A DNA stretch of 64,000 bases from Escherichia coli (GTDB lineage: Bacteria > Pseudomonadota > Gammaproteobacteria > Enterobacterales > Enterobacteriaceae), in the NCBI RefSeq assembly GCF_048403405.1, contig NZ_CP183129.1; one strand, given 5' to 3'. Within the stretch, counting starts at the first letter, position 1, and each line of letters starts with the position of its first letter. Of the stretch, positions 42,401 to 45,400 are shown one piece after another. The position numbers were made by a program.

Positions 42401-45400
42401 TGTTCGATAAAACCGGGACGCTGACCGAAGGGAAGCCGCAGGTTGTCGCAGTAAAAACATTTGCTGATGTTGATGAAGCGCAAGCATTGCGTCTGGCGGC
42501 GGCGCTGGAGCAAGGTTCCAGCCACCCGCTGGCACGGGCGATCCTCGATAAAGCAGGTGATATGCAGCTACCGCAGGTCAACGGTTTCCGCACATTGCGC
42601 GGGCTGGGTGTGAGCGGTGAAGCAGAAGGTCATGCGTTGTTGCTGGGTAATCAGGCGTTGTTAAATGAGCAACAGGTTGATACCAAAGCTATCGAAGCGG
42701 AGATTACTGCTCAGGCATCGCAAGGGGCAACGCCTGTGCTGCTGGCGGTTGACGGGAAAGCGGTAGCCCTGCTGGCTGTACGCGATCCGTTGCGTAGTGA
42801 TAGCGTGGCGGCGCTGCAACGCCTGCATAAAGCGGGATATCGTCTGGTGATGCTAACCGGGGATAACCCAACCACCGCCAATGCGATCGCCAAAGAAGCA
42901 GGGATTGATGAGGTGATAGCCGGGGTGCTACCGGACGGTAAAGCCGAAGCGATCAAACGTCTGCAAAGTGAAGGACGTCAGGTGGCAATGGTGGGCGACG
43001 GCATTAACGACGCGCCAGCGCTGGCTCAGGCGGATGTCGGTATTGCGATGGGTGGCGGCAGTGATGTTGCCATTGAAACCGCGGCGATTACCCTGATGCG
43101 CCATAGCCTGATGGGTGTTGCAGATGCGCTCGCGATTTCCCGCGCAACGCTGCGCAATATGAAGCAGAACCTGCTCGGCGCGTTTATCTACAACAGTATC
43201 GGTATTCCGGTCGCCGCCGGTATTTTGTGGCCGTTCACTGGAACACTGCTTAACCCGGTGGTTGCCGGAGCGGCAATGGCGCTCTCGTCGATTACCGTAG
43301 TGAGTAACGCTAACCGGTTGCTGCGGTTTAAACCGAAAGAGTGATTGGTATTTACTTAATGCGTTTGTGAGATCCAGTTCTTGTTGCGCTCCTTTTATGA
43401 GTCATGCCATATAAAGTGACTGGCGCAGGGAGCGCGCAGGGGGCGGCCAATCGCCGCCGCCCCCTGCACCCCCGGGCTCTGGCGAACAAAATCGCCGCTG
43501 CGCGGTACCCTCAGCTTATCCCTTGCGGCTACCGGGTCGGGCGCGAGGTAACATCCCTGTAAAACGCGCCCTCAGCCCACATCCATGTGGGCTGCCCCGG
43601 CCTTCAGGGAACGCCTCGGCGATTTTGACGCCACCAACACCGGTGCAGTCTTTCGTTTCAAAGCAAAAACAATTTTTCGATCATATTTAAGCTACCACTG
43701 AACAAGCCTCATAACTCCATTTGCGCCATCCCTCCCCGCGCGCTAGCATGATATTTCACAAAGGGAGGTCGTATGGATCTGTTGTACCGGGTAAAAACGC
43801 TTTGGGCCGCGCTGCGCGGTAATCATTACACCTGGCCTGCTATCGATATCTCTCTTCCCGGCAATCGCCATTTTCATCTGATTGGCAGTATTCATATGGG
43901 CAGCCACGATATGGCTCCCCTGCCCACCCGTTTGCTCAAAAAGCTCAAAAACGCCGATGCGCTGATCGTCGAGGCGGATGTTTCCACCAGCGATACGCCT
44001 TTTGCTAATTTGCCTGCCTGCGAGGCGCTGGAAGAGCGCATTAGCGAGGAGCAACTCCAAAACCTGCAGCACATTAGCCAGGAGATGGGCATTTCTACCT
44101 CACTCTTTTCTACCCAACCGCTGTGGCAAATCGCGATGGTTCTTCAGGCGACGCAGGCACAAAAACTGGGGCTGCGGGCAGAATACGGTATCGATTACCA
44201 GCTATTGCAGGCGGCGAAGCAACAACATAAACCCGTGATTGAACTGGAAGGGGCTGAAAACCAGATTGCCATGTTGCTCCAGCTCCCTGACAACGGACTG
44301 GCGCTGCTGGACGATACGCTGACCCACTGGCACACCAATGCACGGTTGCTGCAACAAATGATGAGCTGGTGGCTGAATGCGCCGCCGCAAAATAATGAAA
44401 TAACGCTGCCTAATACGTTCAGTCAGTCGCTGTATGATGTGCTGATGCATCAGCGAAATCTCGCCTGGCGGGACAAATTATGCGCCATGCCGCCGGGGCG
44501 CTATGTGGTCGCAGTCGGTGCACTACACCTGTATGGAGAAGGGAATTTGCCGCAGATGTTGCGCTAAAAAAATGGCCAATATCGCTATTGGCCCGTCAAA
44601 GAGGAATTTCATATTTTTATTATTATGCCGTCACTTTAAGCGACGGTGTAACTCGATTGTCGCTCAATCTCACCATCCTGCCAATACTCTTAGGCAAGAT
44701 GACTCTTTTTTTGGACCGCCATCAGGCGTATGCTTGCTTCGTTTTTTTGTTTAAGGCAGGAAAATTACCATGACACCCGCAGTTAAATTACTCGAAAAAA
44801 ACAAGATTTCGTTTCAAATCCATACCTACGAGCACGATCCGGCTGAAACCAATTTTGGCGATGAAGTCGTCAAAAAATTAGGTTTGAATCCGGATCAGGT
44901 CTACAAAACGCTGCTGGTCGCAGTGAACGGTGATATGAAACACCTTGCCGTGGCCGTTACGCCGGTCGCAGGTCAACTGGATCTTAAAAAAGTAGCAAAA
45001 GCGCTGGGTGCCAAGAAAGTTGAGATGGCCGATCCGATGGTTGCGCAGCGTTCGACGGGATATCTGGTTGGGGGGATTAGCCCTCTGGGGCAGAAAAAAC
45101 GTCTGCCAACGATTATCGACGCCCCCGCACAAGAATTTGCCACTATTTATGTTTCCGGTGGCAAGCGCGGACTGGATATCGAACTGACGGCAGGCGATCT
45201 GGCGAAGATCCTCGATGCCAAATTTGCTGATATCGCCCGCCGCGATTAAGCATTGTGCCGGATGCGAACATCCGGCACTTTCGGATTACTGCCAGCTCAC
45301 CTCACCTTTCGGTTCATAAACACTCACATCCAGCGGCGAGCTTTTCTGGATATACGCTTTCAGCACTTCGGCATCAATAAAGCCGGTATTCACATAGCCC

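What the first reader, a model, noticed from the sequence alone, without database searches (positions are those of the whole stretch)
44566..44649. ChiX sRNA conserved in the ybaP-ybaK spacer
The minus-strand sequence matches ChiX (MicM/SroB) as I recall it, including the terminator. ChiX represses chitoporin and chitobiose uptake mRNAs and is itself decoyed by the chb mRNA. Its intact presence is a useful internal check that the core backbone here is unrearranged.
Basis: established knowledge. Interest (0 to 1): 0.3.

Follow-up and report, generated by a model that had tools for sequence, protein, structure and literature searches.

The report
ChiX small RNA, confirmed and ordinary
The 84-base stretch is the well-known E. 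coli regulatory small RNA ChiX, intact and in its usual place between ybaP and ybaK, differing from the K-12 reference by one apparently harmless base, so the finding is correct but ordinary.

Summary
Confirmed. Rfam family sroB (RF00368, another name for ChiX/MicM) matches window 44566..44649 on the minus strand end to end, at 81.1 bits against a threshold of 44. The sequence is 83/84 identical to the annotated K-12 gene chiX (b4585). It lies between ybaP and ybaK, antisense to both, and overlaps the ybaP stop codon by 2 nt, as in K-12.

The promoter hexamers, 5' hairpin, 12-nt seed (UCCUCUUUGACG) and terminator with its U7 tail are identical to K-12. The only difference is A37U (window 44613), in the A-rich linker. 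It lies outside the seed and keeps the A-R-N repeat frame. It sits at a position that varies across Enterobacterales, and E. albertii and E. whittamii also carry U37. It is probably neutral.

Homologues occur at the same ybaP/ybaK position across Enterobacterales, with compensatory changes in both hairpins.

One caveat applies. An intact ChiX vouches only for its own spacer. ybaQ is replaced about 0.9 kb away, and a 25.8-kb type I secretion and giant-adhesin island ends 6.2 kb away. Nothing here is novel.

The parts
44566..44649 (-). ChiX (SroB/MicM/RybC) small RNA, 84 nt; the transcription start is inferred at 44649 by homology with K-12 b4585
   Evidence: Rfam RF00368 at 81.1 bits against 44, full length. 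83/84 identical to the annotated K-12 ncRNA chiX.
44656..44684 (-). Sigma-70-type promoter: -35 TTGGCA (44684..44679), 17-bp spacer, -10 GACAAT (44661..44656); the -10 hexamer ends 7 nt upstream of +1
   Evidence: Promoter scan. On its own the scan is not above chance (1 found, 0.9 expected). However, the sequence is identical to K-12 from -56 to +36, and GACAAT is conserved upstream of the RNA in many Enterobacteriaceae homologues.
44628..44646 (-). 5' hairpin (ChiX nt 4-22, 8 bp, 3-nt loop)
   Evidence: MFE fold. A 5' hairpin of at least 5 bp is predicted in 99 of 104 homologues. Six of 7 pairs show changes on both sides across genera.
44606..44627 (-). Single-stranded A-rich linker (nt 23-44) carrying A-R-N repeats AAU AAU AAA AAU (nt 26-37); inferred binding site for the distal face of Hfq
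   Evidence: Unpaired in the MFE fold. A-R-N repeats are read directly from the sequence. ChiX is reported as a class II sRNA that binds the proximal and distal faces of Hfq (PMC9068810, PMC5778611, bioRxiv 10.1101/2021.04.25.441314).
44613..44613 (-). A37U, the only difference from K-12 ChiX
   Evidence: The exact window allele is in 382 of 5422 E. coli genomes. It is also in E. albertii, E. whittamii and two divergent E. coli representatives. The equivalent position is G46/A43/U9/C6 across 104 sequences.
44594..44605 (-). Seed UCCUCUUUGACG (nt 45-56), complementary to the Shine-Dalgarno region of the chiP leader; an overlapping stretch (nt 47-58, CUCUUUGACGGG) pairs with the chbB-chbC spacer
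   Evidence: RNAduplex gives 12 contiguous bp with the K-12 chiP leader (-21 kcal/mol) and 12 + 7-8 bp with the chb spacer (-28.5/-29.6). Part of the search pattern, so its invariance in A2 is by selection; it is also upper-case (conserved) in the Rfam consensus.
44566..44593 (-). Rho-independent terminator: stem-loop GGCCAAUA-GCGA-UAUUGGCC (44593..44574), then A and U7 (44573..44566); the U tail is the inferred contact for the proximal face of Hfq
   Evidence: Terminator scan and fold. The helix is paired in 98.7% of cells, with A-U to G-C compensations at two positions. [quoted passage not shown]
43773..44567 (+). ybaP (TraB/GumN family), convergent with ChiX; its stop codon overlaps the last 2 nt of ChiX
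   Evidence: ORF list; annotation of strain C4 and K-12.
44770..45249 (+). ybaK (Cys-tRNA(Pro) deacylase), divergent from ChiX; its start codon is 120 bp from the ChiX start
   Evidence: ORF list; annotation.

Best explanation
This is the chromosomal chiX gene of an E. coli strain outside the K-12 lineage. It is a constitutively transcribed, Hfq-dependent (class II) trans-acting small RNA. A sigma-70 promoter (TTGGCA-17-GACAAT) starts transcription at 44649 on the minus strand, and an intrinsic terminator ends it at 44566. The RNA has a 5' hairpin, a single-stranded A-rich linker with A-R-N repeats, a single-stranded seed (UCCUCUUUGACG) and a terminator hairpin with a U7 tail. With Hfq holding the U tail (proximal face) and the A-rich linker (distal face), the seed pairs with the Shine-Dalgarno region of the chiP leader. 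That blocks translation and promotes Rho-dependent termination within chiPQ. ChiX also pairs with the chbB-chbC spacer and keeps basal chbC low. When chitobiose induces the chb operon, the spacer is made in excess, titrates ChiX and causes its decay, which releases chiP. The chiP-leader fragment ChiZ is a second sponge. What is shown here is identity, anatomy, conservation, synteny and complementarity to the K-12 targets. What is inferred from the literature on K-12 and Salmonella is transcription, Hfq binding and regulation in this strain. The A37U difference is most likely a neutral, ancestral Escherichia polymorphism.
For: Rfam sroB gives a full-length match at 81.1 bits against 44. The sequence is 83/84 identical to the annotated K-12 chiX, with the same 2-nt overlap of the ybaP stop codon. 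DNA from -56 through the promoter hexamers, hairpins, seed and terminator is identical to K-12. The fold gives two hairpins with the linker and seed unpaired, z = -3.8. The seed forms 12 contiguous bp over the chiP Shine-Dalgarno region and 12 + 8 bp with the chb spacer. The sequence is present once in 5422 of 5426 E. coli genomes. The chb spacer is at least 99% identical in 5367 of 5404 genomes, and the chiP leader is present in 5424 of 5426. Homologues lie between ybaP and ybaK, on the opposite strand, in 108 of 120 loci across Enterobacterales. Ten of 10 distant genera score 63-86 bits on sroB, and a chance-match control scores nothing. Covariation is 0.211 against 0.123 in shuffles (0 of 500 reach it), with compensatory changes in both helices. 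The mechanism comes from PMC4098024, PMC8383071, PMC7815308 (ChiZ, Rho, chbBC sponge), PMC10710024 (chbC as a target), and PMC9068810 and PMC5778611 (class II Hfq binding). On A37U: it lies outside the seed; the A-R-N frame AAU AAU AAA AAN is kept; it falls in a 2-nt Escherichia-specific insertion; and it is shared with E. albertii and E. whittamii.
Against: There is no expression, Hfq-binding or regulation data for this strain. The targets chiP and chb lie outside the window, so their sequences in this genome were not seen. The promoter scan alone is not above chance. An A-run at -63..-57 is one base shorter than in K-12, strain C4 and all the best-matching complete genomes; its effect on the promoter, if any, is unknown. 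A37U removes a weak predicted A-tract/U-tail extension of the terminator stem seen in the K-12 MFE fold. The energies differ by only 0.2 kcal/mol.
Confidence: 0.96

Rival explanations
1. The U37 allele is functionally distinct. By adding one U37-A pair to the second helix with the chbB-chbC spacer, it makes ChiX slightly easier to trap, which would lower the chitobiose level needed to derepress chiP. It might also alter Hfq distal-face binding or 3'-end structure.
For: RNAduplex gives -29.6 kcal/mol for the chb spacer duplex with U37 against -28.5 with A37; the helix is extended from AUGAAAU to UAUGAAAU. The K-12 MFE fold pairs the A-run with the U tail and the U37 allele does not. The chb spacer is nearly invariant in E. 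coli.
Against: The gain is about 1 kcal/mol on a roughly 29 kcal/mol duplex. The equivalent position takes all four bases across Enterobacterales and sits in a genus-specific 2-nt insertion. The A-R-N frame is preserved. No data link the allele to a phenotype.
Confidence: 0.06
2. The locus is a decayed or silent copy. The SNP, or the shortened upstream A-run, inactivates the RNA or its promoter, so the sequence is only a relic and serves as the ybaP 3'-end hairpin.
For: There is one substitution in the RNA and a 1-nt deletion at -63..-57, neither found in K-12. No expression data are available.
Against: Every defined element (hexamers, spacing, hairpins, seed, U tail) is identical to K-12. The same allele is kept in 382 E. 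coli genomes and in other Escherichia species. The Rfam score is in the range of other genera. On the ybaP-sense strand the hairpin has no following T-run, so it is oriented as the ChiX terminator.
Confidence: 0.02

Closest known systems
ChiX (SroB / MicM / RybC), E. coli K-12 b4585; Rfam RF00368
   Same: 83 of 84 nt. It has the same promoter hexamers, 5' hairpin, seed, terminator and U7 tail. It has the same position between ybaK and ybaP and the same 2-nt overlap with the ybaP stop codon.
   Different: A37U in the A-rich linker, and an A7 rather than A8 run at -63..-57 upstream of the promoter. The neighbouring ybaQ gene of K-12 is absent.
ChiX of Salmonella enterica, the system in which the chb decoy mechanism was described (Figueroa-Bossi et al. 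2009, as cited in PMC4098024 and PMC8383071)
   Same: Identical seed and terminator stem, the same architecture and the same ybaP/ybaK context (S. enterica subsp. arizonae L108; sroB 84.9 bits).
   Different: The 5' hairpin sequence differs by compensated changes (CCGAAGC/GCGUCGG against CCGUCGC/GUGACGG). The linker is 2 nt shorter (AAUAAUAACGAUG).
Other class II Hfq-dependent sRNAs (MgrR, CyaR, McaS)
   Same: A single-stranded A-R-N-rich segment plus a U-rich terminator tail, which is the reported basis for binding both the distal and proximal faces of Hfq (PMC9068810, PMC5778611, PMC6239178).
   Different: These are unrelated in sequence, targets and genomic location. The resemblance is in mode of action, not family membership.

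Membership tests
ChiX / sroB (Rfam RF00368) | Sequence-plus-structure match to the family covariance model above its curated gathering score | tested here: met
   81.1 bits against 44, model positions 1-83 of 83, E = 2.8e-10.
ChiX / sroB (Rfam RF00368) | Conserved single-stranded seed AAAUUCCUCUUUGAC, complementary to the chiP Shine-Dalgarno region and to the chbB-chbC spacer | tested here: met
   The seed is identical to K-12. It is unpaired in the MFE fold. It forms 12 contiguous bp with the K-12 chiP leader and 12 + 8 bp with the K-12 chb spacer. The strain's own targets lie outside the window.
ChiX / sroB (Rfam RF00368) | 5' hairpin and Rho-independent terminator hairpin with a U-rich tail | tested here: met
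   Fold, terminator scan, and compensatory changes in both helices across 104 homologues.
ChiX / sroB (Rfam RF00368) | Location between ybaK and ybaP, on the opposite strand to both | tested here: met
   The same arrangement is seen in 108 of 120 loci from other Enterobacterales.
ChiX / sroB (Rfam RF00368) | Own promoter giving an independent transcript of about 84 nt | tested here: inconclusive
   TTGGCA-17-GACAAT lies at the right distance and is identical to K-12. The scan itself is not above chance, and transcription cannot be measured here.
ChiX / sroB (Rfam RF00368) | Hfq-dependent repression of chiP, with titration and decay induced by chb mRNA | not testable with these tools
   Known for K-12 and Salmonella (PMC4098024, PMC7815308). 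It requires genetics or northern blots in this strain.
Class II Hfq-binding sRNA | Single-stranded (A-R-N)n tract for the distal face plus a 3' U tail for the proximal face | tested here: met
   Nt 26-37 read AAU AAU AAA AAU, four A-R-N triplets with the SNP at an N position. The U7 tail is intact. Binding itself was not tested.

The most novel reading that the evidence does not exclude
The U37 allele is carried by about 7% of complete E. coli genomes and by E. albertii and E. whittamii. It may be the ancestral Escherichia form of ChiX and may be slightly more sensitive to the chb decoy, through one extra base pair. If so, the A37 allele that dominates E. coli would be a derived change that raises the chitobiose threshold for chitoporin induction.
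Probability: 0.06. Interest if true: 0.2.

Novelty: already known. Interest (0 to 1): 0.07.

Why it matters
The finding matters little on its own. It confirms that a textbook regulatory RNA is present, intact and correctly placed in this strain, which helps annotation because NCBI's pipeline left it unannotated in the closest complete genome, strain C4. It gives a reliable anchor for the copA-ybaP-ybaK-ushA segment. It also shows the limits of using such anchors, because the window differs from K-12 by a replaced gene 0.9 kb away and a 25.8-kb island 6.2 kb away.

Tried and rejected
1. I asked whether the SNP hits a functional element. It does not. It lies outside the seed, both hairpins and the U tail, and it keeps the A-R-N frame.

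2. I asked whether the SNP is private or a sequencing error. It is neither. The allele is in 382 complete E. coli genomes and in other Escherichia species.

3. I counted pairs in the 5' hairpin on the MAFFT alignment. The register is poor for distant genera, with only 55.8% of cells paired. I therefore supplemented this with per-sequence folding, which predicts a hairpin of at least 5 bp in 99 of 104 sequences. I did not build a structure-guided alignment.

4. Whole-molecule duplex predictions with the full-length RNAs gave long, implausible interactions that open both hairpins. I used only the predictions restricted to the single-stranded nt 23-60.

5. Seed accessibility across homologues by MFE folding was not informative. 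The seed is fully unpaired in only 34 of 104 sequences, probably because the fixed-length extraction includes promoter-side bases.

6. I considered that the hairpin might be merely the ybaP terminator. I rejected this because the T-run follows the stem only on the ChiX strand.

7. I could not find the primary ChiX papers (Figueroa-Bossi 2009, Overgaard 2009, Rasmussen 2009, Schu 2015) in the searchable library. The mechanism is cited through papers that summarise them.

Full report
**Observation.** The minus strand of window 44566..44649 reads ACACCGUCGCUUAAAGUGACGGCAUAAUAAUAAAAAUAUGAAAUUCCUCUUUGACGGGCCAAUAGCGAUAUUGGCCAUUUUUUU. A scan of the whole window against Rfam 15 returns family RF00368 (sroB, the original name of ChiX/MicM/RybC) at exactly these coordinates and on this strand. 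The match covers model positions 1-83 of 83 at 81.1 bits, against a gathering score of 44, with E = 2.8e-10. A permissive local scan finds nothing else credible in 43300..44800.

**Identity and context.** MG1655 annotates the ncRNA chiX (b4585) at 507204..507287, between ybaK and ybaP. The window sequence is 83/84 identical to it; the single difference is A37->U at window 44613.
- The flanking ORFs are ybaP (43773..44567, +) and ybaK (44770..45249, +), with copA (40840..43344, +) and ushA (45286..46938, -) beyond them.
- The window is inverted relative to K-12. ChiX is antisense to both neighbours, convergent with ybaP and divergent from ybaK.
- ChiX overlaps the ybaP stop codon by 2 nt, exactly as in K-12.
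- The sequence is present once in 5422 of 5426 complete E. coli genomes. Of these, 382 carry the exact window allele and nearly all the rest differ by one base.

**Anatomy.**
- A sigma-70-like promoter, TTGGCA-17-GACAAT, lies at 44684..44656, and its -10 hexamer ends 7 nt upstream of the first base of the RNA. The scan is not above chance by itself. However, the DNA is identical to K-12 from -56 onward, and GACAAT recurs upstream of the RNA in many related genera.
- The RNA folds into a 5' hairpin (nt 4-22) and a terminator hairpin (nt 57-76), followed by A and U7. Nt 23-56 are single-stranded. The MFE is -23.9 kcal/mol, z = -3.8, and no shuffle of 200 folds as well.
- The single-stranded part holds an A-rich linker that reads AAU AAU AAA AAU (nt 26-37), which is four A-R-N triplets.
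- It also holds the seed UCCUCUUUGACG (nt 45-56).

**Complementarity to the known targets.** The targets were taken from K-12 because chiP and chb lie outside the window.
- With the interaction restricted to the single-stranded region, the seed forms 12 contiguous base pairs with ACGUCAAAGAGGAU in the chiP leader. This covers the Shine-Dalgarno sequence (-21.0 kcal/mol for A37, -21.2 for U37).
- With the chbB-chbC spacer, ChiX forms 12 bp plus a second helix of 7 bp in K-12 (-28.5 kcal/mol). The U37 allele has 8 bp in that second helix (-29.6), because U37 pairs with an A that follows AUUUCAU.
- The chb spacer is at least 99% identical to K-12 in 5367 of 5404 E. coli genomes. The chiP leader is present in 5424 of 5426. 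The partners are therefore very likely present in the source strain, although this was not seen directly.

- The genera include Escherichia, Salmonella, Citrobacter, Klebsiella, Enterobacter, Kluyvera, Serratia, Yersinia, Rahnella, Hafnia, Pantoea, Erwinia and Proteus.
- One hit, in a Lindowbacteria MAG, has no hairpin and is a chance match, in line with the roughly two expected by my own estimate from the collection size.
- ybaP and ybaK homologues flank the match on the opposite strand in 108 of 120 loci. Most of the rest are cut by the end of the fetched DNA.
- Ten of 10 loci from distant genera score 63-86 bits on sroB, and the control scores nothing.
- In a 104-sequence alignment the terminator helix is paired in 98.7% of cells, with A-U to G-C compensation at two positions. 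Six of 7 pairs in the 5' helix show changes on both sides. The covariation score is 0.211 against 0.123 in shuffles, reached by 0 of 500 shuffles, and it exceeds every slid control.
- MAFFT puts the 5' hairpin out of register in distant genera, so I also folded each sequence alone. A 5' hairpin of at least 5 bp is predicted in 99 of 104.

**The single substitution.** Position 37 lies in a 2-nt stretch that only Escherichia has (alignment columns 49-50).
- Counted from the invariant seed, the equivalent base is G in 46 sequences, A in 43, U in 9 and C in 6.
- U37 is shared by E. albertii, E. whittamii and two divergent E. coli species representatives. This suggests that U37 is ancestral in the genus and that A37 is the derived, now dominant, E. 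coli allele.
- It is the third (N) position of an A-R-N triplet, outside the seed and both helices.
- Its only computed effects are one extra pair with the chb decoy (about -1.1 kcal/mol) and the loss of a marginal A-tract/U-tail extension of the terminator stem seen in the K-12 MFE (0.2 kcal/mol).
- I judge it neutral. A subtle effect on decoy sensitivity cannot be excluded.

**Mechanism.** This is taken from the literature, not tested here.
- Pairing at the chiP leader blocks ribosome binding and so promotes Rho-dependent termination within chiPQ (PMC8383071, PMC7815308).
- chbC is described as a ChiX target (PMC10710024).
- When chitobiose induces chbBCARFG, the chbB-chbC spacer pairs with ChiX and causes its decay, which relieves chiP (PMC4098024, PMC7815308).
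- A second sponge, ChiZ, derived from the chiP 5' UTR, was described in 2021 (PMC7815308) and is now annotated in K-12.
- ChiX is a class II sRNA that binds both the proximal and distal faces of Hfq and is a strong competitor for Hfq (PMC9068810, PMC5778611). Its 7-nt single-stranded U tail is noted in bioRxiv 10.1101/2021.04.25.441314.
It only omits ChiZ and the Rho component.

**The backbone remark.** A comparison of the whole window with K-12 480-570 kb shows inverted, collinear blocks at 1-9417, 12029-12532 (cueR, only 94% identical), 38322-43340 and 43701-64000.
- Three stretches have no K-12 counterpart: 9418-12028, 12533-38321 and 43341-43700.
- In strain C4, which matches the tested stretches of the window at 99.8-100%, the 25.8-kb block carries a HlyD-family adaptor, a type I secretion ABC permease/ATPase, a 20.8-kb gene for a BapA-related adhesin (SiiEA) and a TolC-family protein.
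- In strain C4 the 2.6-kb block carries a YadA-like protein and hypothetical proteins.
- The 360-bp stretch replaces the 727 bp of K-12 that hold ybaQ. It consists largely of a roughly 270-bp dispersed repeat.
- ChiX and its immediate neighbours are therefore syntenic, but the presence of ChiX says nothing about the DNA beyond its own spacer.

**Verdict.** This is a correct identification of a known gene. Family membership was tested and met on every feature that can be tested by computation. The finding is not novel. It carries a minor natural polymorphism that is probably neutral. Interest is low.

Noticed in passing
window 12533-38321: A 25.8-kb block absent from K-12 lies between cueR and ybaT. 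In the near-identical strain C4 it is annotated as a HlyD-family adaptor, a type I secretion ABC permease/ATPase, a 20.8-kb 'BapA-related adhesin SiiEA' gene and a TolC-family outer-membrane protein. It ends 6.2 kb from ChiX.
   Followed up: partly
window 9418-12532: A 2.6-kb block absent from K-12 lies between ybbJ and cueR; in strain C4 it holds a YadA-like family protein and three hypothetical proteins. The adjacent cueR segment (12029-12532) is only 94% identical to K-12, against about 98% for the surrounding backbone.
   Followed up: partly
window 43341-43700: The ybaP-copA spacer lacks ybaQ (b0483). The 727 bp of K-12 are replaced by 360 bp that consist largely of a roughly 270-bp unannotated dispersed repeat (2-8 matching places per E. 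coli genome, median 4; the best K-12 copy lies between lysO and aqpZ). Only 346 of 5426 genomes share this arrangement, close to the 382 that carry the U37 ChiX allele. There is a sub-threshold Rfam TwoAYGGAY hit at 43489-43628 (-), 31.5 bits against 43.
   Followed up: partly
window 44706-44712: The A-run at -63..-57 of the ChiX promoter (a T-run upstream of ybaK) is A7 in the window but A8 in K-12 and strain C4. No complete E. coli genome matched the 601-nt query at 100%. It may be a private change or a homopolymer sequencing error.
   Followed up: no
window 58328-58392 (-): The dnaX programmed -1 ribosomal frameshift element, Rfam RF00382 at 96.8 bits, is at the expected place in dnaX.
   Followed up: no
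window 9469-9546 (+) and 50328-50405 (-): There are two Rfam naRNA4 (REP-like, nucleoid-associated RNA) matches. The first lies just inside the left edge of the 2.6-kb non-K-12 block, so it sits at an insertion junction.
   Followed up: no
window 53875-53927 and 61623-61679: Two short intergenic stretches (53 and 57 bp) have no match in the corresponding K-12 region.
   Followed up: no
E. coli genome collection (not the window): Two of the 5422 ChiX matches, and two of the chb spacer matches, lie on records labelled as plasmids. Four complete genomes lack ChiX altogether.
   Followed up: no
strain C4, NZ_CP010121.1 (L001, L007): The RefSeq/PGAP annotation of this genome has no ncRNA feature for chiX, although the sequence is present and identical to the window allele. 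The gene is annotated only in curated records such as MG1655.
   Followed up: yes
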